From NCBI GenBank assembly GCA_014905635.1, contig JABVCE010000003.1, positions 1,178,001 through 1,242,000 on the forward strand: a stretch of DNA of 64,000 nt, given 5' to 3'. Under the pieces are notes generated by a model that did no database searches, had not been told where the DNA came from, and saw nothing but the letters and a program-made list of their open reading frames with translations. Position 1 is the stretch's first letter; each line of letters opens with the position of its first letter. The position numbers and the translations under genes are program-made. Below, piece after piece: positions 3,408 through 46,153 of the stretch. Origin of the DNA: Scenedesmus sp. PABB004. Taxonomy: Eukaryota.

Positions 3408-4674
3408 ATGCAGTGCCTGCGGCAGCGGCCGCGCTGCTGCGCCGCCGGCGGCGGCGCCCGCGCGGCGCCCCGGCCCGCCGCCGTGGCCGCGCTGCCGGCT
3501 CGCAGCCACGGGCAGGTGCAGCCGGCGGGCGCGCAGCCGCGCCGCGCGGCGCCCGTGGCCGCCGCGCCCGGGCGCGGCGCGCGGCGGCGGCCGCTCGCCG
3601 CGGCGGCGGGCCCGCCCGACGCGGCCGGCGCGCCGGGGCCGCGCAAGAAGCTGGCGGTGTTTGTCTCGGGCGGCGGCTCAAACTTCAAGGCCATCCACGC
3701 GGCCTGCCTGAGCGGCGCGATCAACGCAGACGTCGTGGTGCGCCCTCTTTGTCGCGAGCGCGCAGCGCCGCGCGGCCGCGCGGCCGCGCGGCTGCCCAGC
3801 GCGCGCCGCGCCGACGGCGCCGACGCCGGCGCCGCGCCGCAGGCCGTCGTCAGCGACGTGCCGAGCTGCGGCGGTGTGGCGTACGCCGCGGCGGCGGGCA
3901 TCGCGACGCTCACCTACCCCGCGAGCAGGAAGGGCCTGTTCCCCGGGCTCACGCCGGACGAGCTGGTGTCGCAGCTGGCGGCGCTGGGCGCCGAGTACGT
4001 GGTGCTCGCCGGCTTCCTGAAGGCGCGGCAGCGGCGGCGGCGGCGGCAGCTGCGGCGACGGCGGCGGCCGCAGCGGCGGCGGCGACCGCGCGCACCGCCT
4101 CAGCCGCGCCCGCGTCCGCCGCCGCCGCCGCGCAGCTGATCCCGTCGGAGCTGTGCCGCGCGTACAAGCGCCGCATGCTCAACATCCACCCCGGCCTGCT
4201 GCCCAGCTTTGGCGGCAAGGGCTTCTACGGCGGCCGCGTGCACGCCGCGGTGCTCGCCTCGGGCGCGCGGTGCGCGCCGCGCCGCCGCCTTGCGTGCCCC
4301 GTCCGCCCCGCGCGCGCACGCACCCCGCGCCCCCGTGCCCGCGCTCATGCGGCCCGCGCCGCGTGCGGCGTGCAGCTTCTCGGGCCCCACCGTGCACTTT
4401 GTGGACGAGGAGTACGACACCGGGCCCATCCTCGCGCAGCGCGTCGTACCCGTCTTCCCCACCGACTCGCCCGCGCAGCTCGCGGCGCGCGTGCTCGAGC
4501 AGGCGCGGCGCGCGGACGCCGCCCGCGCCGCGCACGCCGGCCCCGCCGCCGCGGCTGACGCGGCGCCGCCGCGCGCAGGAGCACCTGGTGTATCCTTACG
4601 CCGTGTCGGCGCTCGTGGACGGGCGCATCACGTGGCGCGAGGACGGCATCCCCATCATCTGGGAGGCGCGCTGA
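3408..4674 (+). CDS. purN: Phosphoribosylglycinamide (GAR) formyltransferase with probable plastid transit peptide
   Basis: [72 protein letters not shown]. Start codon is inferred. Confidence 0.93.
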
Positions 4675-4970
4675 GGCGCGCAGGCGCTGCCGTGATCCCC
4701 GTGGCTGAATGCGGGGGGGGGGGGCACACCCGGATTTCATTCTGTGCAAACGGTGTACGCCCGGTGCGCGTTGACCGCGGTTTGCCCGTCACTGAACCCG
4801 CCCGCTCGCGCGGTTGCCGCAGCGCTGGGCGTGGCGGCGCCGCTGCCCATGTGCAGACTGACGTGTGGAGCCCCGCGCCCCCGCGCGCCCACACAGCCGC
4901 GAGCCGCAGCGCCAGCAGCGGCAGCAGCAGCACGCCGCACCCGCCGCCGGTCGCACGCACGCGCGCGAGC

Positions 4971-6265
4971 ATGGCCCAAATGGTCGCGCTGGGCGGGCGC
5001 GCCGTCCTGGCAGCCGTCCGCAGCAGCGCGCCCGGCGCCTGCCGGCCGCGCGTGGCGCCGTTTGGGGCGGCGCGGCCATCCAGCAGCAGCGCGCCCCGGC
5101 GCGCCAGCAGCAGCTCTTCGAGCTGGGGCACGCCCGAGCGGTGCGTGAGCTGCCGCTCCTTCGACGGCGACGCCGGCAAGGCGCTCAAGGAGGCGGCCGC
5201 GCTGGACGAGCTCATCGACCTGATGCTGGAGGCCAAGACGCAGCCCGAGGTGCGGCCAGCGGCCAGGGGGCGGGCCCCCCACCTGCATGGACGCGACTGC
5301 CACCCAAAGCCGCCGCCAGCGCGAGCAATTGAGCGCGCGCGCCGCCGCCGCGGCGGGCAGCGCGCGGCGGCGCGGCAGCGGCGGCTCGCGCGCGCCCACG
5401 CGCCCGCGCCCGGCCGTCCGCACGCGCAGCTGTCGCGGCTGGTGGCGGAGAACATATTCAGCTTTGACGCCAAGTTCTGGATGCGCATCGCCACGCGCAA
5501 CGACAGCCTCGCCAGCCAGGTGCGCGGGGGCCGCCCCGCTTGCCGGCCTGCCGCTGCGCGCCGCAGCGGGCGCTGCGCGGCGGCCGCAGCGCCGCGCCGA
5601 CGCCTGCGCCCGCGCACGCGGCCCCAGGCCGACAAGGAGAAGCTCAAGGGCGTGGCGGACACCGTGATGCTGCTGGTGGACGCGATGGTCCGCCAGACGG
5701 AGCAGTCGCTGAACGACTCGGCCGCGGTGCTGCAGGAGGTGCTCAAGGCGGCCGCCGACGACAAGGGCGAGTGGTACGTCCCGCTCGACTCGGCGCAGGT
5801 GAGGGGCCGACCAGGGGCCCGGCCAGCGGGCGCCGCCGCGCGCATTCCGCGGCAGCGCGGCCGCCGCGGCGCGCGGGCGGCGCGCGAGCCGGGCCGGCCG
5901 CGCCCCGGGCGCGCGCGCCGCAGGTCGCCGCGGTGCGCGCCGCGCTCGAAAAGCACGCGTCGCGCCTCGACGAGGCGCTGCTGAGCAACTGCTTTGCGTG
6001 GATGAAAAAGTGCGCCGACGACGGCATGGTGCGCGGCGTGGCGCAGCAGGCTGCCGGCAGCGCGCTGGCTGGCCGACCGTGCCCCGTGCCTGGCTCGCCG
6101 CGCCTGGCTCACTGCGGCGCCCGCCCGCCGCAGGACACGATGGTCGCGCTGCTCCAAAAGGTCCTCCAGCTCTACGCCGCCGCCGCGCTGCGCGGCGCGG
6201 AGACCGAGGTGCGCCGCGCCGCGGCCGCGGCCACGGCAGCAGCAGCAGCAGACGGCGGCGGCAGC

Positions 6266-6301
<36 letters not shown>

Positions 6302-6838
6302 CGGCGCCGCCGCGCGGGGGCGCCGGCGCGGCGCTGCGGCCAGCCGCGCTGGTTGCCGCCCCCACCACGCGCCCTGCGTGCTCCCCGCCGTCACCTGCTG
6401 TCCCCTGCTGCCTCCCTGCCCCCCCCCCCCCCCGGCCCGGCAGGGCGCTGAGGGCGTGCTGAACGAGGTCATCTACGCGGAGGAGGCCGACTGGGAGCCC
6501 ATCCTGCGCAAGCACGCCGCCGCGGGTGCGGCGCACGCGCCGCCGCCCCCGCCCCGGCGCCCGCCCGCCGCACGCGCCCGCCGCCGCCGCATGCGGCCGC
6601 GCGCGCGCGCCGCGCCGCGCGCTCACGCCGCGTGCGCCCGCCGCGCCCGCCGCGTGCGCGTCCAGGCGGCGTGGCCGAGGCGGGGTTCATGGACGCGCTG
6701 CAGCGCCGCATGGAGGCGACGGTGCTGGGCATGCAGAGCGGCAGCTACGCGCAGCGCGTGCAGGCAGAGTACCTCAAGGAGGTCGAGGCGCGGGCCAAGA
6801 CCGTCTTCCGCGCGCTCGCCGCCGCCGCGGGGCCGTGA
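4971..6838 (+). CDS. Uncharacterised helical protein with probable chloroplast transit peptide
   Basis: Ser/Ala/Arg-rich N-terminus, then clean spliced exons (ALDELIDLMLEAK, ENIFSFDAKFWMRIA, LDEALLSNCFAWMKK, GSYAQRVQAEYLKEVEAR). Family not recognised with certainty. Confidence 0.75.
6029..6133 (+). mobile_element. Introner-like intron, copy A (105 nt, GT-AG, phase 0)
   Basis: Near-identical to the intron at 16081-16182 in an unrelated gene. Splicing it out joins DDGM|DTMVALLQK. Confidence 0.7.
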
Positions 6839-7226
6839 GCGCGAGCGCGCGTTCCGCGCGACGGCGTGTTACGTTGCCCGTGCCACGAGCGTGCCGCGCG
6901 CCCGCGCCGCGCACCTCTCCCGCCGCCGCCGCCGCCGCCGCCGCCGCGTGCGTCGTCGCAGCACGCGCGTGCCAGCCCATGCACACAACCCTTTCCCGTT
7001 CAAACCACCGGCAGCGCTGGGTGTTGCAGCAGCGCGCCCTCCCGCCCACGCGTCGGTTGCGCCCCCTCGTCAACAACGCGCGCGCGAACGGTGCCCCTGC
7101 CCGTTCCCTCAGCACAAGCTCCCCAGAGTTTTGTCTTCTTCTGTTTTTTCTCGCAGCTCCCACGCCCCGTGCTCTCCGCCCTTGCTGTTGTTGGTACACG
7201 CGCGCGCGGCGCCTCCGGGCGCCGCC

Positions 7227-8197
7227 TCACCACAGCGCGTCGGGGCTGGCGGCGCCGCGGCGCTGCTGCTGCTGCTGCTGGCGGTGCTGCTGCTGCTGCT
7301 GCGCGCCGGGCACGAACGCGCCGGGGTGCCACGCGCCCCAGCGCTGCGGCGGCCTGCCCGTGCCACCGGCGCCGGCGGCGCCGGTGCTGGAGCCGCCGCC
7401 GCAGGCCGCCGCGCCCCCGTCCTCGCCGTAGTCCTCGGCGGCCAGCCCCCGCAGCGCCTGGCCGTCCAGCTGCTCCAGCAGCTCCAGCGCCTCCTGCATG
7501 CTGCCAAAGCTCTCCAGCACCAGCGCGTGCCGCTCCAGCAGCGCGGCGCGCAGTGCTGCGCGCCCATGCCGCGCCGCGCCAGCGGACGCGCTGCCGCCCG
7601 CCGCGCGCACGGCCGCCAGCTCGCCGCCGCGCCACGCCGCCAGCGCGCCAGCCGCCAGGCCGCTGCTTCCCCCGCCTGCGGCGGCGGCCGCCGCTGCCGC
7701 CGCGTCCGGGGGCGGCTGCCCCCCGGCGCCGGGGTGCCACCAGCGCTCCTGCTGCTGCTGCTGCAGCCCGCTCGCGTGCGCGTGCGCGCCGCCGCCGCCG
7801 CCGGCGCGCAGCGCGTCGTACTCGCGCCGCGCGGCGCCGTCGCTGAGCAGCTCATACGCGAGGCGGCAGCGCAGGAACGCGGCCGCCTGGCCGCCCGCGT
7901 CGGGGTGGTGCAGGCGCGCGAGGCGCCGCCACGCGGCCTTGATCTCCGCCCCGCTCGCCGTCGACGCGACGCCCAGGACGGCGTACAGTGTGCTGCCCTC
8001 TGCGGCGGCGATGGTGGCGCGGGTCGGCGCGAGGCGCTCTGCAGGTGTCGGTGCCGGCCAGCGCGCGGCAGCAGCGGCGCGGGCACCGGCAGCGCCGCCG
8101 CGCGCTCACCGCCGGGCGCCGCCCGCGGCGCGACGGCCCTGCAGCTGCGCCGCCCGGCGCTGACCGACGGGCCGGCGCGCTGCAGGGCCATGGCCAT
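7227..8197 (-). CDS. DnaJ (J-domain) protein, probable plastid type III
   Basis: Exon 2 reads [56 protein letters not shown] (HPD motif). Exon 1 ([12 protein letters not shown]) is transit-peptide-like. Confidence 0.85.
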
Positions 8198-8701
8198 GGC
8201 GCTCGGCGCAGCGGCAGGCGGCGCGCGAGCAGCGCCTCCAACCGGCAGGCCGGGGCGGCGGCGCGCTGCCGCCGAGCGGCTCGGTCGGTTGCCGGTCTCC
8301 GGGCGGCTGGTTGGGGGAAGTCGGTGGCAGGCCGCACTGCAGCGAGGCCGGTAGCGCGCCGAACTCGCTCCGCTGCAACCGCCGCTGGCGGGGGTTCTGC
8401 GTGTGCCTCTCTGGGTGGCTGGCTCGCTCCCTGAGCTCAGCGGCAGCACACACGCCGAGCGCCACCACGCACGCACAGCTCAGCACCGCCGCCCGCCGCC
8501 CGCCGCTCGGCGCGCCGCCCTTCGTGGCCCGATCGCGGCCCCGCCGCCGCCTGATCGGTCACGCCACACACGCCCAGCGCACAACAACCGCCGCCAGCGG
8601 TCCTCGTGCCACCGCCGGCGATGCGCGGCGCGGCGCCGTGAGCGCGAGCGGCTGGCAGCAGCGGCGGCCGCGCGCTGCTCGCTGCTCAGTGAGCGGCGGC
8701 G

Positions 8702-10551
8702 ATGGCGGTGGACTGGGCCTGGCTCGCCGTCCACTGGGCGGCCGCGGCGGCGCTGCGCCTGGCGCTCGCGGCGCTGGGCGCGGGCGAGGCGCTGCTGTGG
8801 CGGCCCGAGGTCTCCACGCCCGCCAACACCGCGCTCAAGGCGCGCGAGGGCGCGCGCCTGCTGCAGCTCGGCCTGCCGCCGTACGGCGGCGCCGCCTGCC
8901 ACGCGCCGCCGCTGTGGCTCGCCGCCGCGGCGCCGTGGCTGGAGCGCGGTGTGCTGTCGGCGGTGCCGGGCCTCGCCTGCGACCTGGTCGCCGCGGGCGC
9001 GCTCCTGGCGACCGCGGCCGCGCTGCACGCGCCCGGCGCGCGCGCGTCCGGCCACGAGCGCGGTGCGCGGCGGCGGCGCGCGCCCGCCCCCTGCGCGCGC
9101 CCGCCCCCTGCGTGCGCCTGGCGCGCCCCGCCGCCGACCGCCCCTCACGCCCGCCGCAGACGCGCCGTGGCTCAGCCCGGAGGCCCTCTCGCTGCTGTAC
9201 CTGCTGCACCCGTTCACGCTGCTCACGAGCGTCGCGGGCGCGAGCACGGCGGCGGAAAGCATGGCGGCGCTGCTCGCCGTCGCGGGCGGCGTGACGGGCA
9301 GCGCGCCGGTCGCGGGGCTGGGCCTCGCGCTGGGGACGTACCTGGGCCTGCAGCCCGTGCTGCTCGCAGTGAGCGGCTGCTCACCACAGCAGCACGGGGG
9401 CCCTGTTGGGGGGCGTGCGACGCTGCGGCCGTGCCGCCAGCGCTCCGCGCGTCGCGCTCCCTGCCGCGCGAGCCCACTCGGCGCGTCGCGCCGCGCGCCG
9501 CACGCAGGCGCCGCTCGCGCTGCTGCTGTGGCGGGGGCCTGAGGACGTCCTGGAGAGCGTGCCGCCGCCGCCGCCGCCGCTGACGGCGGCAGAGGCGGCA
9601 GCCGGCAGCGAAGCGGCGGACGGCAGCGGGGCGACGGCCGGCGCCGACGGCGCGGAGCCGGCAGCGGGCGCGGACGGCGCGGCAGCCGTCAACGGCGCGG
9701 CGCGCGGCGGCAGCAAGCCCAGGCAGCGGCGGCGCGGCGCAGCGGCCGGCGCCGACGGCGTCGAGCAGGAGGCGGCTTCGCCAGCGGCCCCGGCGGCCCC
9801 GCCGCGCAGCGCCGCGCGCGTGGCGGCCTTTGCCGCGTGGGCGCTCGCGTGCGGCACCGCGCTGGTGGCGCTCAGCGACGCGGTGCTCGCGGCGCATCCG
9901 GGGCAGCAGTGCCTGCCCGCGGCGGCGGCCTGGGCGCGGCGCGCGCTGCGCTCCGGCGGCCCCGGCGGCCCCGGCGGGCCCGGCCCCGGCGGCGCCGCTC
10001 GCGCGCGCGGTTGCTGGGCGGCGGCGGTGTACGGCTTTTCGCTGCAGCTGCGGGACCTCACGCCCAACATCGGGCTGTTCTGGTACTTTTTCACTGAGAT
10101 GTTTGATGCCTTTCGCCCCTTCTTCCTCTTTGTGCTGCACTCGTTCCCCGCGCTGCTCGCGGCGCCGCTCGCGCTGCGCTTCCCGGCGCGCCCGCTGCTC
10201 GTCGCGTGGGCGCAGCTGCTCGTCGGCGCCGCGTTCCGCCCGTACGCGTGCGTCGGCGACATGGCGCCCTGGATGGCGCTGCTGCCGCTGCTGCAGCAGC
10301 AGCTCGCCGCGCTGCGCCCCGGGGTGTTCCTCGCAAACGCGCTTGTGCTGCTCGCCGTGCTGGGCCCCGCGATGTGGACGCAGTGGATCGTCGCCGACGC
10401 GGCCAACGCCAACTTTTTCTACTCCATCACGCTCCTGCTGGGCGTGTGGACCACGCTGCTGCTGGTGACGGCGCTGCGCGCGACGGCGCTGGTCGACCGC
10501 CGGCTGCGTGCGGCGGCGCGCGCGCGGCGGCGGCCGCCGCCGCGCCAGTGA
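8702..10551 (+). CDS. PIGU: GPI transamidase subunit PIG-U (Gab1/Cdc91)
   Basis: WRPEVSTP..REG....GLPPYGG...HAPPL, LRDLTPNIGLFWYFFTEMFDAFRPFF, FRPYACVGD, ANANFFYSITL; multiple TM segments. Confidence 0.92.
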
Positions 10552-11165
10552 CGCCGGGCTTTTGCAACACGAGCGACGACGCGGGGGACGTGGGACTTGG
10601 CTCGTGCGCGCCGTCGCCCTGCGCCCGCGGCAACGCGGCCGCACGCCGACCGTGCGCGGCCGTCGTTCCTGCGCGGCCGTCGTTCCTGCGTCGTTCCTGC
10701 AGCTGCGCGGCTGCCGTCGTCGCCTGTGCCGCCGCCGCGGCCGCCCCGCTGCCGCCCACGCCTCGTCCAGGCGGCCAGTGATCTCCGACGCCCACTCGAC
10801 CGAGCGCAGTGCAGCGCCCTGCACAAACACACACGGCTTGTCAGTATAAACCATTGCGCCCCCACAGCGGCTCGCGCGAGGGGCTCGCACCGCCCGATTG
10901 CTACCAGGCACGACGCCGATCACACTCGCGCAGCTCCAGGGCCGCCCGGAACGGCGCACTGCGTGCACGTCGCGGCAGTCCCCGGCAAGCGGCCCAGCCG
11001 CTGCCAGCGCTTGACCGTCCCCAGCGCAGCGCGTCTCGGCAGCTTGAACACAGCCTGCATGACGCCCGCGAGCGGCGCCAGAGCCTGACGCCGCCGCCGC
11101 ACGCGCGGCAGCAGCGGCGGCCGCGGTGACGCCGCGCCCACGGAGGAGCGGAAAAGCCGCCAGCC

Positions 11166-14100
11166 ATGCGGCCGCGGCTTCTTGCGCTCTGCGCTGCAGC
11201 GCTGCTGCTGGCGCGCGGCGCCGGGGGCCAGGGCCTGGACGCGAGCGCCGAGCAGCTCGGCGCCGGCGAAGCTCTGACGGCGAGCCAGTTTGATGCCTTC
11301 GAAGAGGCCCTTGCCCTCGCCGCCGGCTCGACTGGCGGCCGCGGCAACGGCGGCCGCGGCGGCTCCCTCACGGGCAGCACCGCGTTCACCGACGCGCAGC
11401 GCCTGGGCGACCTGCAGGTGGGCGCGCTGCCGCGGCTGCCGGCGGCCCGCCAGGCGCCGCCGCTCAGCTGCCCCGCCCCGCCGCCCCGCCTCGCTTCCCA
11501 CCTCGCCCCGCCCCGCAGCGCGGCGTGTACTACCTGGCGGCCGCGCCCAAGGACTTTGGCGTCTGCGACAGCCTCAGCGTGCGCTCCGAGGGGCCGCTCC
11601 GCGAGCCGCTGCCGCGGCGGCACGACTGCAACACGCACGTGCCGCCGCCGCGCGACCAGCGCGAGTGCCAGACCTGCGTTGCCGAGGCCGTGGCGACGGC
11701 GATCGGCATGTCTGTGGCGGCGACGCTGCAGACCGACCCGCGCGACTGGAACGTCAGCGCTGCGTCGCTGTTTTACTGCAGCGCGGGCGGCAGGACGTGC
11801 AAGACTGGTGGGTGGCGCCGCGTGCCGCGGGCTGCAGCGTGGCCTGCCGCCGCCGCCTGGCCTGCTGCTGCCCTGGGCTGACACGCGCCTGGCCGCGTGC
11901 GCCGCGCTGCAGGGTTCGACATCCAAGAACAGCTGCACCTGGTGGTGAGCGCGCCGCCCCGCTCGGCAGCAGAAGCCGTGCTGCCCCTCTGCGCGGGCTG
12001 ACGCTGCCGCCACGTTGCCGCCGCGGTGCTGTGCACAGATTGACGAGGCACCGGAGCTGATCCGGCCCGTCAGCTGCCTGGCAAACGACAGCGCGCTTGT
12101 CGACGCGACCGAGCAGGCGCGCGTCACGAGCTGGGGCCCTGCCTGTGACGCCGCCGGGCGGTCGTGCGCCTACGACGCCACACAGCCCTACCTCAAGTGC
12201 AGGTACAAGTCCCTCAGCACCTTCTGGCAGATCCAGCAGCACATCCGCAACCACGGCGCCGTCATCAGCCGCATCACCATCTACGACGACTGGGAGGTCC
12301 AGTTCAACTCGAGCGCGCGCAGCGCCGCGGGCGAGGAGTGGCCGCCGTACAGCTTCAACGCAAGCGCCAAGCCCGCGTTTGGGCACGCGGTCGTGATCGT
12401 CGGATATTCCAACACAAACTACACGTGGTGTGCGCGTGCGCGCGTGCGCTGCCGGCGAGGGGCGCGGCAGCGCGGCTGCCGCTCACGCCGCCGCGTCCCG
12501 CGGCCGCCGCAGGCTGGTGCAGAACAGCTGGGGCGCCGCCGCCGACGCCGGGCAGTTCCGCACGCGCGGCATCACCGCCGACGGCCTGGTGCGCGTGAAG
12601 ATGGGCCTGGCAGGTGCGGCGGCTCGGGCGCAGCGCGACGCGGCGCGGCATGCAGGCTGCAGCGCATCATCAGCTGCTGCACGCACTGACCCGCGCCGCG
12701 CGCCGCTGCTGCCCGGCCGCGCCGCAGGCGTCGGCACGCCGGACCAAACGTTCGGCGTCGAGTGCGTGCCGTTACCTGGCTCAGAGCACGACCCGCACCA
12801 CGTGCAGCCCTGGCTGCGGCCGCGGCGCGTGGAGCTGGAGCGCCGTGACCAGCTGCTGGACCTGAACACCTCTTGCGTGATCTATCGCGCGAGAGCCGAC
12901 GACTCGGTGGCGTCCATCGTTGACGCGTTTCGCATTGACATGGTTGACTTTGTCCGAGTGAACAGCAACCTGTGGGGGGCGCGCGTGAACATGAGCTACG
13001 CGCTGTCCTCTGCCGCCCTGGCCCAGGAGTCGCTGCAGAAGGTGCTCGACGCGGCCGCAAGGGTGCTGTGGCAGGAAGGTGAGCCACTCCCGTTTGTGAG
13101 CTGCACGCACTACGACGCGGCAGGCACCGCCACGCGCGTGACCTGCGACAACAGCACCGGCGCGGCGGCGTGCCTGCGGCTGAGCGTCAACGGCACCGGC
13201 AAGGGCACCGTGGGGTGCCGGCTGAATTACGCCAACGCAAACGTAACGGCCGGCCTACAGCCACGCAAGCCGGTCAAGATCTGCGGCCTCTCCCAGCTGC
13301 AGCGCCCGCGTGAGTTTTATTCAGTGGCTGCGTTTGGCGATCCCGAGGTTGCGCAGATCCGTGCGCTGCTGGGCATCGTCAAGGCGCTGGCCCCCAAGTT
13401 TACGCCGGACGCCTCCAAGGCAGGCAGGCTGAGCTGGTGGCTGTGCGAGACATATGCACACCCAGTTGCCGCCTACCTCCCCGACCGGGCTGGCAAGTTT
13501 CAGCTGTGGGTAGAGGCCGTCGACAGCGACCATTCACCCCAATCTGTGAAGGAATGCATCGCGCACATGGGCAAGGAGGCGCGCGCTGGCAAGCTCGCCC
13601 TCTGGGGAAGCGTCCCTGCCTCTTTCCCGGCCTTCAGCGATGCGCTCCTCTATCCCTTGCTCAACCTCACGGGCCTGGTGGAGATTGAGCTGCGAATGTT
13701 TGTGAGTGACGGGCTCGCCAAGCTGCCGCCGCAGCTGGGCGCGCTGCAGCACCTGGAAAAGTTGGCGATCCTCCATTGCATGGAGGGCGCGCTGCCCCCC
13801 AACTGGCTGCCAGGCTGGCCAAGCATGAGATACTTGTCACTGACTAGCTCATCGGACGACTCGAGTTGTGGGCTGACCGGCACCATCCCGAGCGCCTGGC
13901 TGGAGGCGCGTGCCCCCCACCTGTGGTTTCTCCGCTTGGCCAGGCAGCGTCTGAGCGGCGAGCTGGGCGCTGAGTTTGCCACGGCGTTCCCAGCCCTGCA
14001 GGCGCTGTACCTAGGCAACAACACATTCACAGGGGCGCTGAGCCCGGACTGGGCGAAGCTGGCCAACCTGGAGTGGATTGATGTGTCAGGAAACGACCTC

Positions 14101-16572
14101 AGCGGCATCGTGCCGCCGTCCTGGGCGTCCCTGGCGGCGCGGGCAAAGATCGTTCTGGACGACAACCCTCAGCTGACCGGCTGCCTACCGTTTGGCGCAG
14201 ACCTCGCGCGACGCGTGTCGTATGCGCACACCGGCATCACGAGCGCGTGCGGGCAGGGCCCCGGCGAGGGCGCGCAGTGGCGTGCTCTTAACACCACGCT
14301 GCGTGCACTGCTGCTGGCTGGTGACGTCAGCGCGTCCGCCCAGAGCGCGTTTGATGCCCTGCTGACCAAACTGAACCCGCTGGGGGTAGCGCTGCGGGCG
14401 CGTGAGACGTATGCTATTCGCGACCGTTCGACCTCCATTCGTTTGAGGATCACCCTGCGCGATGTCGGAGGCGTGGCAAGCGTTGGGCGCATCCAAGGTT
14501 CGGCCCTGGGCCTCAACCTCACCCACCTGCCCGCGCTGGCAGCGCAGCTGCCGAGCCTGGACTGGTTTGAGTGTGTTTCATGCACGCGCAATGCTCCCGG
14601 CACGCCTGGCCACGGCCCGCGCGACCTGGTGCTGCCGCCGAACCTGTCGCAGTACGCGCGGCAGCTGCATTGGCTGGTTCTTTCTGGCTGTGGGCTGCGT
14701 GGCCCGCTGCCGCCCGAGTGGGGCAGCGACTGGGCGCCCATAAATACCATGCGATTGGACCAAAACTCTCTCACTGGCAGCTTGCCCACTGCGTGGAAGG
14801 ACCTCAGCGGGTTGTTTCAATTGTTTTTGGCAGACAACCGGCTCGAGGGCACCCTCCCCGCTGAGTGGGGCGCAGCCGGTGTCATGTCAACAAGCGTTTG
14901 GATGAGCCTGAGCAACAACCTCAAGCTGAACGGCACCATCCCGGCCTCGTGGACGCACTTCACTTCCCTCATTGACGTGGGAGGGACGAACATCACCGGC
15001 TGCGTGCCTGGGAGCTTGTGGGTCATCACAGGGTATTTGCGGCTGCCACCATGCTCGTCGCCCGATGCGGTCGCCATGGCGGAACTGCGAGCCCTGCTCA
15101 CCAACAGCAGCAGCCACGGCTCTGCCGGCCCGTTGGCGTCGTGGTCCGGCATCCCCGACGGTGCGGCGTGGCGGGGCGAGGGGGGCGCGCGCGCAGCGCT
15201 GGTGCTGGCGCCAGCCACCGCTGCCGACCGCCCACCTGCCCCGCGCGCCGCCCTCCGCGCTGCCGCAGACTCCAGTGCCAAGCCCGCTCACTGCGCAGGC
15301 TGGGCGGGCGTCACCTGCAGCGACGCCTTTCGCGTTTCCGGCCTGGACCTGGCGAGCCTGGGGCTGCGCCTGGCGCTGCCGCTCACGCTGCACGAGCTCA
15401 CCGCCCTTGCCGCCAGGCTGCCCGACCTGCAGACGCTGGAGCTGGCGGGGCTGGGGCTGCAGGGCAGCCTTGAGGAGGCGGCCGCCGACATTGCCGGGCT
15501 GTCAGGCCTGCGCACGCTCAATGTGAGCGGCAACCCCAGGCTCAGCGGCCCGCTGCCTGGCGCGCTGGCGGGCGCCACGGCGCTGGAGGTGCTGGACGCG
15601 TCGGGCTGCGCCCTGGCCGGCCCCCTGCCCGAGGTGTTTGCCATGCTGCAGCGGCTGCGCGTGCTGAGGCTGGCCGGCAACAGCGGCATCAACGGCACCG
15701 TCCCGCTCGCCTGGGGCATAATGCGGGCCCTGGAGGAGCTGGACGCGTCGGGGTGCAGCCTCACGGGGCCGCTGCCGGCGGCCTGGGCGCAGGCGGGCGC
15801 TGCAGCGGCGGCCGCGCGCGAGGCGCTGGCCGCGTCCGGGGCTGCTGCAGCCGAGCTCCCTATGGCAGCGGCAGCCGTGGCTGCTGCCGAGGCGCAGCCG
15901 GCCGCCAGCGGCCCGCTGATGGCGCGGCTGCGCGTGCTGCGGCTCGCGGGCAACGCCGTTACTGGCGGGCTGCCGCCCGAGCTCAATGCGTTCACGCAGC
16001 TCGCCGTTGTCGACCTGTCGCACAACCCGCGGCTCGGCGGCAGCCTGCCGCCGGCGTGGGCCTTCCTGGCGCAGCTCGCGGTGCGCGGCGCGGCGCAGCA
16101 GGCTGCGGGCGGCGCGCTGGCTGGCCGACCGTGCCCCCTGCCTGGCTCACCGCGCCTGGCTCACCGCGCCCGCCTGCTGCAGGACCTGGGCCTGGCCAAC
16201 TGCAGCCTCACCGGGACGCTGCCGTTTGCCTGGTCGTCGCTCATCGGCCTGACCCGCCTAGACGTTTCGGGCAACGCGCTCGGCGGCGCGCTCGTGCCCA
16301 CGTATGGCGCGCTGACCGCGCTGCAGCGCCTCGGCCTCGCGTCAAACACATTTGTCGGCGCCGTGCCGCGTGAGTGGGCGGCGCTGCGGCGCTGCCCCCT
16401 CGGGAGCATTGACCTGCGAGACAGCCCCTGCATGGACGCTGCGGCCCTGAACGCCAGCGTGGTCGCGGCGGGGCTGGGCGGTGTCGTGCTGATTGATGGC
16501 AGGCCCGGCCCGGCGCGGCCGTGCCCTGGCGGTGGCGGCGGTGGCGGCGGGCGCCGCCGCCTCCGCGCCTGA
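11166..16572 (+). CDS. Large secreted multidomain protein: signal peptide, papain-like (C1A) cysteine protease, LysM-like module, several plant-type LRR blocks
   Basis: N-terminus MRPRLLALCAAALLLARGAGG; DQRECQTC (Cys codon 11675), FGHAVVIVGY (His 12384), WLVQNSWG (Asn 12523); CVIYRARADDSVASIVDAFRIDMVDFVRVN; many LxxLxLxxNxLxGxLPxxW repeats; no C-terminal TM. Confidence 0.85.
16081..16182 (+). mobile_element. Introner-like intron, copy B (102 nt, GT-AG, phase 0)
   Basis: Near-identical to 6029-6133. Removing it restores the LRR register AFLAQLA|DLGLANCSLTGTLP. Confidence 0.7.
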
Positions 16573-20240: not shown

Positions 20241-20929
20241 TCAGCCCGCGCCGACATCTCGCTCCATCCCCCTTAGCACGGCACGACCGTTCGCTCACGC
20301 GGAGCGACGCCGTGCGCCACAACCGTCCACTGTTCGCAGCACGCCCCCCCCCCGCGCTCCCAAACCCCGTCCGCCAATGCGCGCGGTCGCGAGCCACTGC
20401 TTCCGGCGTGCCGCGGCGATGCGCGCCGCGGAGCGCTGCGCGCCGGCGCTGCAGGCGCCCGCCATCATCGCTGCCTCGCCGACCGCCCGGCCGGGCGCGC
20501 GCGTGCCAGGTGTGGGTCCGGGCGGTTCCGGGGGGTCGCGATCCTCGTCCCGAGCGGCGCGCCGGGCCGCTGCGACCGCGCTCCGTGCCGGAAAGGGGCG
20601 GCGGGTCCACAGCGATGCCGCCAGTTTATACTCGCGAACGCGCTGCAGCGGTCCGTGGCGGCTGGGCGCGGCGCCCTCCGCCCCCGGCCATCGGCCCCGA
20701 CGCGCCGCGCCGCGCCGGCAGTGGCTCGCGCCGCAGTCGGCCGCGGCAGCGCGCGCGCGCGGCGGCCGTCCCGCGGGGCGGGCGGCCGGCGGCGTTTGCT
20801 TGCCCGCGGGCGGCGCCGAGCGCCTGGACGCCTGCGTGCTCAGCAGCTTGGGAGGCAGGGAGGGAGGGAGAAAGCCTGTTGCGCACCCCCCGCTGACCCG
20901 CGCGCGCTCCGCCCGCCGCGCGCCCGCAG

Positions 20930-22529: not shown

Positions 22530-25520
22530 ATGGAGGTGTTCCACACCACCCTGCTGGGCGGGGAGAGCCCGGCGCCGGCGGCGTGGGCCTGGTCAGCAGC
22601 GGTGCGCGCCCCGCGGCGCAGAGGCTGCAGCAGCCGCTAGGAGGCCCTGCCGTCTTCGATGCGCTCCTCTAGACGCAGCTCACGCCGCGACGCCGCGCCG
22701 TGCGCTGCGCCGCCCCGGCCGGGGCGGGCGCGGCGCTGCTCTCGCGCGCAGGCGCCGCACGCGCAGCCGCTGCTCGCCGCGGCGTCGGCCGGCGGCAATG
22801 CCGTCGACATCTACACTGCCCAGGCGAGCCCCTGGGGCGCGGGACGCACCGCCAGCAGCCAGCGGCCGGCGCGCGCGCGCCCACCCGCCCGCTGCGCCGG
22901 CCGCCGCACGCGCAGGGCGCGCCCTGGCCGCCCGCGCGCGGCGGCGTGCGCAGCGCGCGCGGCGGCGTGCGCAGCGCGCGCGGCGCCCCGGGCGCCACGC
23001 TGGCTTGGCACCCGGCACAGCCGCTGCTCGCGGTCGGCTGGCAGGACGGCGCGGTGTCGGTCTGGGACGCGGGCGCGGCGCGCGCAGAGGAGGACGGCGG
23101 CGCCCACCGCGCCGCGCTCGCGCACGTGGCGTGGGCGCCGTCGGGCGCGCCGCTGCTGGCCACGGCCGACGCAGACGGCAGGCTGGTCATGTGGCGCGCC
23201 GAGCGCGGGCGGCAGCTTGCGATCCTTGCGCGCGCGTCGGCGGCCGAGCGCGGCGGGGCGCGCGTCACGCACGTCGAGTGGGGCGCGGCGGCGCCGCACG
23301 CCACCGTCTTCTACGCCGCCGCCACGCTCGGCAGCGCCACGGTCACGCTCAAGTGGCTGGACGAGCGGGGCGGCAGCGGCGTGGTGCAGGTGCGACCGCT
23401 CGTGGGGCGCGGCGCGCGCCGGGGCGGGCGCGCTGAGCTGCCGCCGCCGCCGCCGCCGCCGCCGCCGCTGAGCTGCTGCCGCCGCCGCGCAGGACGTGGG
23501 CGAGCCCCTGGCGGCGCTGCTGTTCTACGCCGAGCGCCAGCAGCTGGTCGCGGTCGGCGCCAGCGGCGCGGCGCTCGTGCTCGCCAGCAGCGGCGGCGAG
23601 TGGCGCGTGGTCATGCGCATGCGCTTTGCTGGCGCCGGCGGCGGCGGCGGCCTGTGCGTGTGCTGGGCGGGGCCCACACGCTCGCGACCGCGAGCGGCGG
23701 CGCGCCCGGCGTGCGGCTGCTGCAGCTGGACACGGACGACAACTGCGCCCTGGACCTCGGCGGGTGCGCGGGCAGCGACAGCGGCGGCGACGCCTCCGGC
23801 GCGCCAGCAGCGGCGCCGCGCGGCGCGGGCGGCGTCGCGGCGATGGCGTACGAGCCCGGGCAGCGCGTGCTTGCGGTGGCCACCGCCGGCGGCCGCGTGT
23901 GCCTGTTCCGGCGCTGCGACCGCGGCGACGCGGCCGAGGCGGGCGGCGCCGAGCCGTCCGGGCAGTGGGAGCCGCAGCAGAGCTTCCAGGTGGGCGGAGC
24001 GCGGGCCCGAGGCGTGCGCGCGCCGGCGCGGGCCGCGCGCGGCGCAGGCGCGGAGCCGCCCGCCGCCCCGCCCCGCAGGTCGGCGCGTCGCCGGCCGCGC
24101 TCGTGTGGGGCCCGACCGCGCAGCTGCTCGCGGCGAGCTGCGCCGACGGCCTGCACCTGTGCACGCGCGCCCAGCTGCACGCCAAGGTCCGCGAGGGCTA
24201 CGTCGCGGTCCAGGAGGCGGCGGGCCGCGTCGTGGTGGAGCAGGCCGACGCCGCGCCGCGCCCGCCAGGCCGCATCAGCACGCGGCTCGCGCTCGCGGGC
24301 CTCGACGTCACGGCGCACGCGCTGCTGCTGCACGACGGCCGGCGCGCCGAGGTGTACGGCATCAGCCCCGCCGACAACGTGCTCACGCTGCTCTCGCGGT
24401 TTGAGGCTCCGCCCGTGGCGCTCGCGGCAGCCGCGGCGGAGCCGGCGCCGCCGCCCGGCGGCGGCTGCGGCGGCGGCGGCGGCGCGGCCGCAGGCGGCGG
24501 TGCCGCGGCGCAGCAGCCGGTGGTGTGCGGCGGGCCGCAGGGCGGCTGCTCCATGGCGCTGCACGGCGACTCGGTGTTCCGCACAGCGCCGCAGCGCGTC
24601 GAGGCGTGCAGCCAGTCAGGTGCGCGGCGAGCGCGGCGTGGTGGGGTGCGGCGCTGCCTGTGGCGAGGGGCGCGTGGTCACGTGCGAGCCGCTCCGCTGT
24701 CGCGCCGTCGCCGGCGCAGGCGTGGTGAAGCAGACGCTGGCGTTTGACGAGGCCCAGGGCCAGCCGCTGCTGCTGGACGCGCAGGGCGAGTACCTCGCGG
24801 TGCTGACCAGCCGCGGCCTCGTGCGCGTGTTCAAGCTGACCGGGGGCGAGGCCAAGCCCCACGCCGGGCCGGGTGCGGCGGCGGCCCGCGCGGCTCTCCT
24901 CTGCTGCCCTCTCTACACCCTAAACACACGCCCACGCACACTCACACCTGCGCCCCGCGCAGGCCCGCTGCTGCCGCACGGCGCGGGTGGCGGTGCGCTG
25001 CAGGTGGACGCGATCCGCGTCAACTGCGCCGGCACGATGGTCGCCGCGCTCGCGCGCGCGGCGGGCGGCGGCGCCGCCGACCCCCGGCTGCTCGTCTTCT
25101 GCGCCGAGCGCAGCGCGCCGCTCGTGCACAACTTTTCGGGCGACGGCCTCGCGCCGTGCGGCGCGGCGTGGGACCTGCACGACCCGCGCCTGCTCGCGGT
25201 GTCCACCGCGCCGCTGCAGCGTGCGCAAGGCACCGACGCCGGCGCGGGCGACGGCGGGGACGGCGACCGCGCACCCAGCCCCGCAGGCGCCGGCGCCGCG
25301 GGCGCCGGCGCCGCGGGCGCGGGCGCCACGGCGCCAGCAGGGCCCCCGCCGCGGCGCCAGCGGGGCGTGGCGCTGATGTTTGCGACCGCCGAGGCGGGCC
25401 TGCTGCTGCAGGAGCACCAGGGCCTCGGCGGCACCGCCGGCGACGGCGGCGCGTTCCTCGGCCTCGCCGCGCCGCACCTCCTGCTGCACCGCCGCGCGCC
25501 GCCTGGCGCGGCCGCGCCGT

Positions 25521-25589
<69 letters not shown>

Positions 25590-28500
25590 TCCTGGCGCGC
25601 GCGCCGCTCGCGTGCTTTGCGGGGCTGGAGGCCGCGGACGCGCCCACGCGCGCCGCGCTGCTGGACTTTTCCTACCTCCTGGCGCTGAGCCGCGCGGAGG
25701 AGGCGTTCCGCGCGGTCGCGGCGCTGCGCAGCCCCACGGTGTGGCGAGCTATGGCGCACGCGGCGATCAAGACCAAGCGCCTCGACGTCGCGGGTGCGCG
25801 CGCGAGGGGTGCGGGGGCGCAGCAGGCCGGCAGGCCAGCCACGCCGGCGCGGCGCGCCCGCCCCGACCGCGTCGCTGCCTGAGAGCCACGGGCGCTCAAC
25901 TGCAGTCACACCCGGCACGCCTCGCGCACGCAGAGCACTGCCTGGGCAACATGGAGCACGTGCGCGGCTCTCGCGCGCTGCGTGCCGGCGCGGCGCTGCC
26001 GGAGCTCGACGCGCGCGTGGGCCTGGTCGCGGTGCAGCTGGGCCTGTCCGACGACGCGGCGCGCCTGTTTGCGGTGTGCGAGCGCTGGGACCTGCTCGGC
26101 GCGCTGCACGCCGCGGGTGGCGCCTGGGACGCGGCGCTCGGCGTCGCGGCGTCGCAGGACCGCATCCGGCTGTCGGCGGCGCGGCACGCCGCGGCGCGGC
26201 ACCTGGAGGCGATCGGCGACCTGGCGGGCGCGCGCGCGGCGTACGCGGCGGCCGGCGCGGGCGCGACCGAGGTGCCGCGCATGCTGTGGGAGGCGGGGCA
26301 GCTGGCGCAGCTCGAGGCGCTCGCGCTGCAGAGCGGCGACCCCGGGCTGCTGACCTGGTGGGCGCGGCACTGCGAGAGCACCGGGCAGTTTGACAAGGCT
26401 CTCGACTGCTACCAGCGCGCGGGTGCGGCGGCGCCGCAGCGCGCAGCCGGCCGCGCGGCCGGGCACACGCACGCGGGCACTGCTCCCACCTCGCCTGCCG
26501 CGGGGTGGGACGAGCCCGGCGCCCGGCCGCCCGCCCTCTGGCGGCGCGCGCGCAGGCGACCGCCTGGCGGCGCTGCGCATCCACTGCGCGACCGGCGCGT
26601 GGGACGCGGCGGAGGCGCTCGTGGCGTCGGGCGCCGACCCGGCGTGCGCGTTCCTCCTCGCGCGTGCACACGAGGCGCAGGGCCGCTTGCCCGAGGCGAT
26701 TCGCTGCTACAGCGCCGCGGGGCGCCACGGCCACGGCGCGCGCCTCGCGCTCAGGTGCGGCGGCGCGCGGCGCGCGCGGTGCGCGCCGCGGCGCTGCGTT
26801 CCCGAGGCCCCAGCGCACCCCGCCATCCGCCCGCTGGATGGCCGCGCAGGTGCGGCATGGACAATGAGCTGCTGCTGCTGGCGCTCAAGAGCCCGCCGGC
26901 GGTGATGCTCGAGGCGGCGGAGCACCTGCTCGCGGCCGGCAACGCCGAGGCCGCGGCGCTGCTGTACCAGAAGGGCGGCAAGCTCGGCACGGCGCTGGAC
27001 ATGGCGCTCGCGTCGGGCCTGCACGGGGTGCGAGCAGCGCGCGGTGCCTGTGCGGCGCGTGTGCGGGCCGCGCGGCTGCGCGGGCGCGGGGTCCGCGCGC
27101 CGCCGAGCGGGCGCCGCGGCGCGGCGCCGCAGGTGCTGGAGGCCATCGCAGAGCAGCTCGACCCGGAAGCCGACGTGGGGCTGCTGGCGCGGTGAGGCGG
27201 CGGGCGCCGGCACGGCCGTGGCCCGGCTCGCCCCGCCTCGCCGCGCGGCCGCGTGCCGCCGACGCGGCCGCCGCCGCGCCGCACGCGCGCGCGCCCCAGG
27301 TGTGCTGACGCCCTGCTGGCGGCCAGGCAGCACGCCAAGGCCACCGCGCTGCTCGTGCGCGGGGGGCAGCGCGCGCGTGCGCTCGACCTGGTGCTCGCGC
27401 ACGATGTGCCGCTGACCGAGGAGCTCGCCGAGGCGCTCACGCCGGAGAAGGCCCCCGACGGCAGCGGCGGCGGCGGCGGCGGCGACGCGCGCGCGGCAGT
27501 GCTGCTGCGCATCGCGCAGGTCGGCGGCCATGCCGCGCGCGCGCGGGGGCGCGGCGGCCGCGGCGGCCGCAGCCTGCGAGGCGCGGGCTCAGCTCCGCGC
27601 GCCGCGCGGCGCAGGCGGCCAAGCGCCAGGGGCTGTACCACCTGGCCTGCAAGAAGTACACGCAGGCCGGCGACCGGCTGCGCGCGATGCGGGCGCTCGT
27701 CAAGAGCGGCGACACAGACAAGATTGTCTTCTTCGCCGGTGCGCGTGTGCGCCGCTGCAGCCTGTGTGGGCGGCTCGAGGCGCCCCGCTGGGCCCCGCCC
27801 CGCCCGCGCGCCGCCGCCGGTGGCCCACGCGCTCCCGGGGCGGCCGCCCGGGGCGCGCGCGGGGCCTCGCAGGCGTGTCGCGGCAAGCGGAGGTGTACGT
27901 GATGGCGGCCAACCACCTGCAGACGCTCGACTGGCGCGCGCGCCCCGAGCTGCTGCAGCAGCTGCTTGGCTTCTACGCCAAGGCCCGCGCGTCCGACAGC
28001 CTCGCCGCGTTCTACGGGCGCTGCGCCGCGGACGAGGTCGCGTACGGCGAGTACGGCAAGGCGGCCCAGGCGCGGCGGCGGCAAGCGGGGCGGCGTGCCC
28101 GGCGGCGCGCGCGGCGGCGCGCGCGGCGGCGCGCGCGGCGCGTGCCCCCTCTCAGCCGCGCGGCAGTGGCCCCATTCTCTGTGCAGAGGGGCCCACGCCC
28201 CGCGCCCCGCCCGGCGCGGCCCACAGGCGCTGGAGGAGGCGGCGCGGCACCTCGCCAAGAGCCGCGCGTCGGACCGCGACGCGCAGCTCGCGGCGCTCGC
28301 GGTGCGCGCGGGCCGCGTGCGCCGCTTTGCGGCGGCTCAGGCGCAGCTGGAGACCGACCCGCGCGCGGCGGCGGTCGAGGCGTGCCAGGAGCTGCTCGCG
28401 ACGGCGCCCGAGGCACAGGCGCGCCGCGGCGGGGCGGGTCGGGGCGGGTCGGAGCGCCGCGCGCGGGCGCCACGCCGTCGACCTCCGTGCTCTAACCGCC

Positions 28501-45883: not shown

Positions 45884-46091
45884 TCGCGCGCGGCGCCGGG
45901 GCGTCCGCCGGCGCGCCGCCGCCGCCGCTCGCAGCCCACCGCGCCGGCCGGGCGCCCACCGCTCGCCGCGCAGGCAGCTACGCCACGGGCGAGGAGGCGG
46001 CGCTGGTGTACGACGCCGCGGCGCGCGAGCTGCGCGGGCCCAACGCGCCGACCAACTTCCCCACGCCCGGCGAGGCGGAGCGGCTCAAGTG

Positions 46092-46153
<62 letters not shown>

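What the first reader, a model, noticed from the sequence alone, without database searches (positions are those of the whole stretch)
6029..16182. Two near-identical introns in unrelated genes: a candidate introner (mobile intron) family
Seen: intron 6029-6133 (plastid-type unknown gene) and intron 16081-16182 (LRR region of the papain-LysM-LRR gene) align end to end, with 8 substitutions and one 3-nt indel over 105 nt by my hand alignment. Similarity runs from the GT donor to the AG acceptor. The flanking exons are unrelated apart from a G before and GAC after each copy, and both introns are phase 0. I found no other intron in the window with this sequence. Established: introner elements, described in Micromonas and several fungi and algae, create new spliceosomal introns with this signature. 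Inference: a recently active intron-generating element in this lineage. I see no clear terminal inverted repeats or target-site duplication, so the mechanism is open.
Basis: partly seen in the sequence, partly recalled or inferred. Interest (0 to 1): 0.88.

Follow-up and report, generated by a model that had tools for sequence, protein, structure and literature searches.

The report
Two sibling introns in unrelated genes
Two short introns 10 kb apart in unrelated genes of an extremely GC-rich green alga are about 90% identical copies of one sequence, which is the mark of an intron that copied itself; whether a larger mobile family exists could not be tested.

Summary
Window 6029-6133 (105 nt) and 16081-16182 (102 nt) are 90% identical from GT to AG. 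Their flanks (59-62% identical) sit at the window's background of 64.6 +/- 4.1%. No third copy lies in the 64 kb.

The window matches Scenedesmus sp. PABB004 (78% GC). Copy A is very probably an intron that the public gene model reads through as 35 amino acids. All 31 aligned green-algal homologues lack exactly those 35 residues, and two unspliced-looking ORFs of relatives cross the site uninterrupted. Removing copy B restores a 24-residue leucine-rich repeat. Both copies are sense, phase 0, a multiple of 3 in length and stop-free. I found no terminal inverted repeats, no informative target-site duplication, no Rfam match (copy A only) and no unusual fold.

Family size could not be measured, because no genome or RNA data were reachable. 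Peptide searches in all three sense frames found no further read-through copy, which argues weakly against a large young family.

Verdict: an introner-like intron duplication, at least one copy a lineage-specific gain. Splicing, mobility and family membership are unproven. Interest is moderate.

The parts
6029..6133 (+). Copy A: 105-nt intron (GTGCGCGG...CGCCGCAG), phase 0, in a conserved green-algal gene of unknown function. The public model reads it through as 35 amino acids.
   Evidence: The public model P0001 contains its frame-0 translation. All 31 aligned homologues have a gap over exactly these 35 columns.
16081..16182 (+). Copy B: 102-nt intron (GTGCGCGG...TGCTGCAG), phase 0, in the LRR region of a large + strand ORF (12397-16569).
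   Evidence: Pfam LRR hits in the ORF. Removing residues 1229-1262 joins LAQLA to DLGLANCSLTGTLPFAWSS, which makes one 24-residue LRR.
5927..6028 (+). Exon sequence upstream of copy A (...LSNCFAWMKKCADDGM).
   Evidence: Exact-match mapping of P0001; conserved in homologues.
6134..6208 (+). Exon sequence downstream of copy A (DTMVALLQKVLQLYAAAALRGAETE). It is followed by the annotated intron 6209-6443.
15919..16080 (+). LRR units upstream of copy B (24 + 25 residues, plus the first 5 residues of the split unit).
16183..16383 (+). LRR units downstream of copy B (the last 19 residues of the split unit, then two 24-residue units).
6084..6111 (+). Internal 14-nt tandem duplication in copy A (86% between units). 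The second unit holds the branch-site-like CTCAC, 22 nt from the 3' end.
16140..16167 (+). The same 14-nt tandem duplication in copy B (GCCTGGCTCACCGC twice, identical), with CTCAC 33 and 19 nt from the 3' end.

Best explanation
The two segments are sibling spliceosomal introns. One intron-sized unit of about 105 nt carries its own 5' splice site (GTGCGC), a duplicated branch-site-like CTCAC motif and a CAG 3' site. It was copied and inserted in sense orientation at a G|GAC site between codons of a second, unrelated gene 10 kb away. Splicing then restores the host reading frame.

This is how introner or introner-like elements behave. At least copy A is a gain in this lineage. The family is probably small or old, from two to a few tens of copies, and not a large, currently active one.

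Shown: the similarity and its sharp bounds, the unrelated flanks, the absence of the copy A segment from homologues, and the restored LRR period at copy B. Inferred: that both are spliced, which copy came first, and the copying mechanism (DNA transposition or reverse splicing).
For: - Identity is 90.5% against a background of 64.6 +/- 4.1%, and the flanks are at background. BLAST E is 6e-35 and the bounds lie within 1 nt (5') and 3 nt (3') of the splice sites.
- Copy A: 14 of 14 and 17 of 17 aligned homologues (31 of the 120 listed, 254 found) have no residue in the 35 columns, and the gap edges coincide with GT and AG.
- P0107 and P0108 visibly read into other introns, so they look like unspliced genomic ORFs. 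Both cross site A uninterrupted.
- Copy B: excision gives exactly one 24-residue LRR.
- The 5' end GTGCG is shared with 5 of 9 annotated introns of the neighbouring model. CTSAY lies 19-33 nt from the 3' end in both copies.
- Small family: no third copy in 64 kb. Read-through peptide searches found only the window's own protein in frame 0 (1 hit of 91 candidates), nothing in frame 1 (0 of 241) and only 35-55% identical multi-stretch repeat proteins in frame 2 (8 hits).
Against: - No RNA evidence of splicing: no RNA run was listed.
- The public annotation treats copy A as coding.
- Both copies are 3n and stop-free, and they differ by a 3-nt indel. This also fits a translated insertion.
- Family size was never measured on the genome.
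- Two copies within 10 kb of a 39.8-Mb genome could be a one-off local repair event and not mobility.
- The peptide searches would miss copies that are correctly annotated as introns, so they bound the family only weakly.
- I found no TSD or TIR that would mark a transposon.
Confidence: 0.55

Rival explanations
1. One reading: these are two members of a large, recently active introner family (hundreds or more copies) that is making new introns across this genome.
For: - Two copies in 64 kb of a 39.8-Mb genome would extrapolate to roughly a thousand copies if they were spread evenly (genome size from PMC12571836).
- The pair meets three of the four published introner screening criteria.
- Green algae are the group where introners were mainly found (PMC9860276, passage).
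- This genome was not found in that survey's stored genome table, so a family could have gone unreported.
Against: - No third copy, even a diverged one, appears among the window's other introns.
- The copies are 9.5% apart.
- One of the two local copies is read through in the public proteome, yet no other protein holds the peptide in any of three sense frames. With hundreds of copies, many such read-throughs would be expected.
- The reported repeat content is only 1.31%.
Confidence: 0.2
2. The segments are not spliced. They are in-frame insertions of 34-35 codons, a small mobile or repair-derived insert, that are translated as the public gene model of copy A assumes.
For: Both copies are multiples of 3, have no stop codon in frame, and differ by a 3-nt indel. 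Model P0001 includes copy A as coding. Only 2 of 9 neighbouring annotated introns are 3n. phmmer can thread the copy B peptide loosely through LRR structures.
Against: - Both start G|GTGCGC and end CAG|G, like the local intron consensus, with a branch-like motif at the usual distance.
- Between the copies 2 changes are synonymous and 5-6 are not, so there is no sign of protein-level constraint. I read this by eye from the alignment.
- At 78% GC a 35-codon stretch is stop-free more often than not. This is my estimate from base composition.
- The insert breaks an otherwise exact LRR period, and 31 of 31 homologues lack it.
Confidence: 0.1
3. A one-off local event, not a mobile element. A break in one gene was repaired using the nearby intron, or its excised RNA, as a template. 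Alternatively, ectopic gene conversion homogenised two pre-existing introns.
For: The two copies lie only 10,052 nt apart on the same strand. For two randomly placed copies in 39.8 Mb this has a chance of about 5e-4 (my arithmetic). No further copy was found anywhere I could look.
Against: - Copying exactly from GT to AG is not expected of templated repair of DNA.
- Conversion needs prior similarity, and the flanks show none.
- Site A carries no intron in the relatives examined, so at least that intron is new and not converted.
Confidence: 0.1
4. The similarity reflects a conserved functional RNA housed in both introns, such as an intronic snoRNA or another small RNA, and not intron duplication as such.
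For: Intron-hosted small RNAs often occur as paralogues in different host genes (general knowledge, recalled).
Against: - There is no Rfam match inside copy A at E of 1 or less; only 5900-6300 was searched and copy B was not.
- The folds are no more stable than shuffles: z +0.50 for copy A and +1.96 for copy B.
- Similarity runs through the splice sites themselves instead of stopping at an internal core.
- I saw no C/D box motifs on reading the sequence.
Confidence: 0.03

Closest known systems
Micromonas introner elements, especially the short E2-IE type 1 of strain CCMP2099 (Simmons et al. 2015, PMC4540971; passages seen)
   Same: These are short introns (74-75 nt there, 102-105 nt here) in a GC-rich green alga. 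They lie in sense orientation, have canonical splice sites and are often phase 0. That family was first noticed as two introns 89% identical, against 90% here. Relatives show intron presence and absence.
   Different: The two Micromonas introns lay in one gene and were confirmed as a family by many further copies in metagenomes and genomes. Here no further copy was found. The host is a freshwater chlorophycean (Sphaeropleales), not a marine prasinophyte. There is no sequence relationship.
Introner families as defined in the survey of 3,325 genomes (Gozashti et al. 2022, PMC9860276; passages, section 15 and supplementary table seen)
   Same: The pairwise E-value, the similarity reaching both intron boundaries and the non-paralogous hosts are all met. 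Families without TSD or TIR exist there. Small families exist too: M. commoda has two families with 44 introners in total.
   Different: That definition needs at least four introns per family, which is untested here. Many families there show 3-9 bp TSDs (49 of 130) or TIRs (72 of 177). Here nothing goes beyond an ambiguous G or GG.
Aureococcus introners (as described in a figure legend of PMC9860276; original paper Huff et al. 2016 not held)
   Same: GC-rich algal host. The element carries both splice sites.
   Different: Those add 12 nt (4 nt from the element plus an 8-bp TSD), so four residues, to the transcript. Here excision leaves no extra codon in either host: the homologue alignment and the LRR period are exact.
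Fungal introner-like elements of Dothideomycetes (as summarised in PMC9860276 and PMC4540971; originals not read)
   Same: No TSD and no TIR. Confined to genes in sense orientation. Proposed RNA-level copying by reverse splicing would give exactly GT-to-AG bounded copies, as seen here.
   Different: The fungal elements form multi-copy families and are reported to fold stably (recalled). Here there are two copies and no excess fold stability.

Membership tests
Introner / introner-like element (screen of PMC9860276, section 15) | Intron-to-intron BLAST similarity with E of 1e-5 or less within one genome | tested here: met
   E 6e-35, 89.9% over 109 nt; 90.5% in a global alignment.
Introner / introner-like element (screen of PMC9860276, section 15) | Similarity begins within 5 exonic or 10 intronic bases of both boundaries in both introns | tested here: met
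   Similarity starts 1 nt before GT and ends 3 nt after AG.
Introner / introner-like element (screen of PMC9860276, section 15) | Host proteins are not paralogues | tested here: met
   Flanking 100 nt are 59% and 62% identical against a background of 64.6%. One host is an LRR protein; the other is a conserved algal protein with no LRR and no Pfam hit in that part. The survey's own diamond test was not run.
Introner / introner-like element (screen of PMC9860276, section 15) | Family of at least four introns in the genome | not testable with these tools
   No genome is held. Only 2 copies lie in the 64-kb window. Indirect searches found no more.
Introner elements (three properties quoted in PMC4540971) | Lies in a transcription unit in sense orientation and is removed by the spliceosome | tested here: inconclusive
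   Both copies are sense to + strand hosts and carry consensus-like signals. Removal is inferred from homologues and the LRR period. No RNA data exist, and the public model reads copy A through.
Introner elements (three properties quoted in PMC4540971) | Intron presence or absence against related taxa, indicating gain | tested here: inconclusive
   Copy A: unspliced-looking ORFs of relatives (P0107, P0108) cross the site without an intron while reading into other introns. They are distant relatives (61-70% identity over that exon), so loss there is not excluded. Copy B: not tested.
DNA-transposon-type introners / MITEs | Target-site duplication with a locus-specific base, or terminal inverted repeats of 6 nt or more | tested here: not met
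   Only G (or GG across the junction) recurs at both ends and in both copies, which the survey's own rules call ambiguous. The termini share TGC(G)...(C)GCA only, which is part of the splice consensus. With two copies this test has little power.
Intron-hosted small RNA (snoRNA and the like) | Match to a curated RNA family, or a fold more stable than chance | tested here: not met
   No Rfam match inside 6029-6133 at E of 1 or less; copy B was not searched. Fold z-scores are +0.50 and +1.96.

The most novel reading that the evidence does not exclude
This is the first glimpse of an unreported introner family in a freshwater chlorophycean alga (Sphaeropleales) with one of the most GC-rich nuclear genomes known. 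Its unit is built to be harmless when splicing fails: 3n long, stop-free in every sense frame, and inserted between codons. It can therefore spread even where splicing is inefficient. It can also hide from gene predictors as coding sequence, as copy A does in the public annotation.
Probability: 0.25. Interest if true: 0.6.

Novelty: new member of a known kind. Interest (0 to 1): 0.4.

Why it matters
How new spliceosomal introns arise is a long-standing question, and introners are the best documented source. A clean GT-to-AG intron duplication with a demonstrably non-ancestral position adds a case from a lineage and a genome type (78% GC, 39.8 Mb, 1.3% repeats) where I found none reported. PABB004 is absent from the survey's stored genome table. 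The top 15 listed papers of my text search for 'introner' with Scenedesmus, Tetradesmus, Sphaeropleales or Chlorophyceae never use the word 'introner'.

There is also a practical point. In such genomes an in-frame, stop-free intron is easily annotated as coding. The public model here carries 35 spurious residues and fuses two genes. If only two copies exist, the pair is still a rare, datable example of single intron transposition.

Tried and rejected
- **Whole-genome copy count.** No genome is held for the window.
- **Metagenome scan with an 18-nt core.** All are chance matches in unrelated, mostly bacterial-looking contigs: the longest alignment to copy A is 68 nt at 73.5% and none runs end to end. 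A longer pattern would have been wiser.
- **Viral contigs with a 26-nt core.** 0 matches.
- **Prokaryote genomes with a 22-nt core.** 1 match, in an Acetobacteraceae MAG at 63% GC. It is a chance hit.
- **Sequencing runs.** Only two DNA metagenome runs were listed (X1, X2, one study, shares 0.25 and 0.21), and no RNA holder was listed.
- **Laying the contigs of X1 and X2 on 5700-16500.** None of the 16 pieces shown (385 more not shown) covers either intron. None of the 15 joints shown (2 not shown) matches an intron boundary. One relative's contig skips 15985-16291 (305 nt, content between unknown), which I could not interpret in a repeat array. This is no evidence either way.
- **Earlier notes of this scan.** There is nothing on this genome or this sequence. 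The word search returned only cases from other genomes.
- **Solved LRR structures.** phmmer threads the copy B peptide loosely as a degenerate repeat with about 10 surplus residues, so this does not decide between intron and insertion.
- **Weak BLAST hits at 20437-20510 and 50225-50256.** They are not copies.
- **Shared splice signals plus composition as the cause, as in ordinary strict-consensus introns.** Rejected: identity is 6 SD above background, and none of 9 neighbouring introns resembles the pair beyond GTGCG and CAG.
- **Assembly or adapter artefact.** Rejected: the copies differ at about 10 positions and have the genome's own composition.
- **Huff et al. 2016.** The paper is not held.
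Full report
**What is in the sequence.** Window 6029-6133 (105 nt, copy A) and 16081-16182 (102 nt, copy B) align end to end with 8 substitutions and one 3-nt gap. Similarity starts at G|GTGCGC and stops at CAG|GAC. A global alignment gives 90.5% identity. The 100 nt upstream are 59% identical and the 100 nt downstream 62%. That is no better than copy A against 983 random 105-nt windows of the same sequence (64.6 +/- 4.1%, maximum 77.1%). The window is 78.4% G+C, so such a control is needed.

In a filtered self-BLAST of all 64 kb this pair is the strongest repeat (E 6e-35). The only other pairs of 50 nt or more lie in the two AAA domains of one ATPase gene, which is coding paralogy. A profile of the two copies finds nothing else with E below 3. 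The best weaker BLAST hits are not copies when aligned.

**Where the window comes from.** The genes are eukaryotic and split between frames: IFT140, PIG-U, Tam41, XPG and LRR. A peptide search returned one protein, named PUR3 of Scenedesmus sp. PABB004, on a 1.84-Mb contig. All 718 of its residues map exactly onto the window in ten blocks. A comparative paper lists this genome as 39.8 Mb, 77 contigs, 78.5% GC, 7,092 genes and 1.31% repeats (PMC12571836, passages).

**Are they introns?**

Copy A: the public model reads it through as 35 residues inside exon 5927-6208. The host part of that model (residues about 430-718) has many stand-alone green-algal homologues. 254 were found with E of 0.001 or less, and 120 were listed. 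I aligned 31 of them, 14 and 17, including transcriptome-derived proteins. All 31 have a gap over exactly the 35 columns, flanked by conserved ...KKxxDDxM and DTMVxLLQKVLQLY.

Two of them look like unspliced ORFs called on genomic contigs. P0107 carries a 66-residue Pro/Arg/Ala-rich insert ten codons downstream. P0108 begins with unrelated residues at or near the position of the window's intron 5799-5923. Both cross site A without interruption. So the segment is not conserved coding sequence, and the intron position is not shared with these relatives.

Copy B: taking out residues 1229-1262 of the ORF joins LAQLA to DLGLANCSLTGTLPFAWSS. This gives one regular 24-residue unit between units of 25 and 24 residues. 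The frame-0 peptide search that found copy A's read-through did not find one for copy B.

Both copies begin GTGCGC, as 5 of 9 annotated introns of the neighbouring model begin GTGCG. Both end CAG, sit between G and G, and hold CTCAC 19-33 nt from the 3' end inside a 14-nt tandem duplication.

There is no RNA evidence. No RNA run was listed. Splicing is therefore inferred.

**The translated-insertion rival.** Both copies are multiples of 3, open in all three sense frames, and differ by a 3-nt indel. Only 2 of 9 neighbouring introns are 3n. phmmer against solved LRR structures threads the copy B peptide loosely, so this test does not decide.

Against translation:
- The splice signals are present.
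- The insert breaks the LRR period.
- It is absent from every homologue.
- Read by eye from the alignment, 2 differences are synonymous and 5-6 are non-synonymous, so there is no protein-level constraint.
- At this G+C content, stop-free stretches mean little: there are 143 stop-free stretches of 250 codons or more in 64 kb.

**Is there a family?** This is the crux, and it could not be measured.
- Within the window there are two copies only.
All 120 loci are unrelated.
- Scans of viral contigs found 0 matches.
- The scan of prokaryote genomes found 1 chance match.
- Contigs of two freshwater metagenome runs that hold close relatives did not cover the introns in what was shown.

As a proxy I used the fact that the public proteome reads copy A through, and searched the intron's translation:
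- Frame 0 found only the window's own protein, among 91 candidates in 5.8 billion proteins.
- Frame 1 found nothing among 241 candidates.
- Frame 2, against 1.84 billion representatives, gave 8 hits of 35-55% identity with 5-12 stretches each. I take these for repeat proteins and did not inspect them further.

If hundreds of copies at about 90% identity existed and even a tenth were read through, hits would be expected. This argues weakly against a large young family. It says nothing about correctly annotated copies.

The 9.5% divergence also argues against very recent activity.

**Mechanism.** I found no terminal inverted repeats beyond TGC(G)...(C)GCA, which is part of the splice consensus. 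I found no duplication of flanking bases except G, or GG across the junction, which is the same in both copies. The published rules call such a pattern ambiguous. The folds are no more stable than shuffles (z +0.50 and +1.96). No Rfam family matches inside copy A; copy B was not searched.

Exact GT-to-AG bounds with no added codon fit two mechanisms. One is an element whose ends are the splice sites, the TSD-less and TIR-less class of introners. The other is RNA-level intron transposition by reverse splicing. The shared G|GAC site and phase 0 may reflect a target preference or chance, since there are only two copies. The 10,052-nt spacing suggests local copying.

**Comparison with what is known.** The pair meets three of the four screening rules of the 3,325-genome introner survey: E-value, boundary-to-boundary similarity and non-paralogous hosts. 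The fourth rule, four or more introns, is untested (PMC9860276, section 15).

The pair resembles the first sighting of the short Micromonas E2-IE introns. Those were two introns of 74-75 nt at 89% identity, and they became a family only when more copies turned up in metagenomes (PMC4540971).

It differs from Aureococcus introners, which add 12 nt to the transcript.

PABB004 does not occur in the stored part of the survey's genome table (the file was cut when stored). Monoraphidium neglectum and Raphidocelis subcapitata are scored there without introners. In my text search for 'introner' together with Scenedesmus, Tetradesmus, Sphaeropleales or Chlorophyceae, none of the 15 listed papers uses the word 'introner'. 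This is not an exhaustive claim.

**Verdict.** The best reading (0.55) is an introner-like duplication of one intron-sized unit, with copy A a lineage-specific gain and the family probably small or old.

Rivals:
- A large active family: 0.2.
- A translated in-frame insertion: 0.1.
- A one-off local repair or conversion event: 0.1.
- A hosted small RNA: 0.03.

This is a new member of a known kind and of moderate interest. A single genome-wide BLAST and one RNA-seq library would settle it.

Noticed in passing
window 3408-6835 (+): The public gene model P0001 ('PUR3', 718 aa) looks like a chimera. A GAR-transformylase part (Pfam PF00551, residues 142-301) is fused to a conserved green-algal protein of unknown function (residues about 430-718) whose homologues are stand-alone proteins of 250-390 aa. 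It also carries intron A as 35 spurious residues.
   Followed up: partly
protein P0107 (relative; JGI contig up to 61 kb), aligned to window 6134-6208: A Monoraphidium-like relative has a 66-residue Pro/Arg/Ala-rich in-frame insert between LLQKV and LQLY, ten codons downstream of site A, and nothing at site A. It looks like a different, unspliced, stop-free intron gained at a neighbouring position in another GC-rich alga.
   Followed up: no
window 4023-4135 and 4503-4578 (+): Two introns of the public model appear to start with GC instead of GT (GCGCGG...CAG). They are either real GC-AG introns or model errors.
   Followed up: no
window 39258-39319 / 40621-40682 and 39873-39943 / 41092-41162: These are the only other non-simple repeats of 50 nt or more in the window (87% identity). 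They lie in the two AAA domains of a CDC48-like ATPase gene on the minus strand, so they are coding paralogy and not mobile DNA.
   Followed up: partly
whole window: At 78% G+C all six frames stay open. There are 143 stop-free stretches of 250 codons or more in 64 kb, with long GCG/GCC/CAG triplet runs (for example 25520-25590 and 46090-46150). An open frame is no evidence of coding here, and in-frame introns can pass as exons.
   Followed up: partly
window 16068-16115 (+): The 13 exon bases before copy B plus its first 11 bases resemble the next 24 bases of the intron (GGCGCAGCTCGCGGTGCGCGGCGC vs GGCGCAGCAGGCTGCGGGCGGCGC, 79%). This is probably chance in this composition, and it is not seen at copy A.
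   Followed up: no
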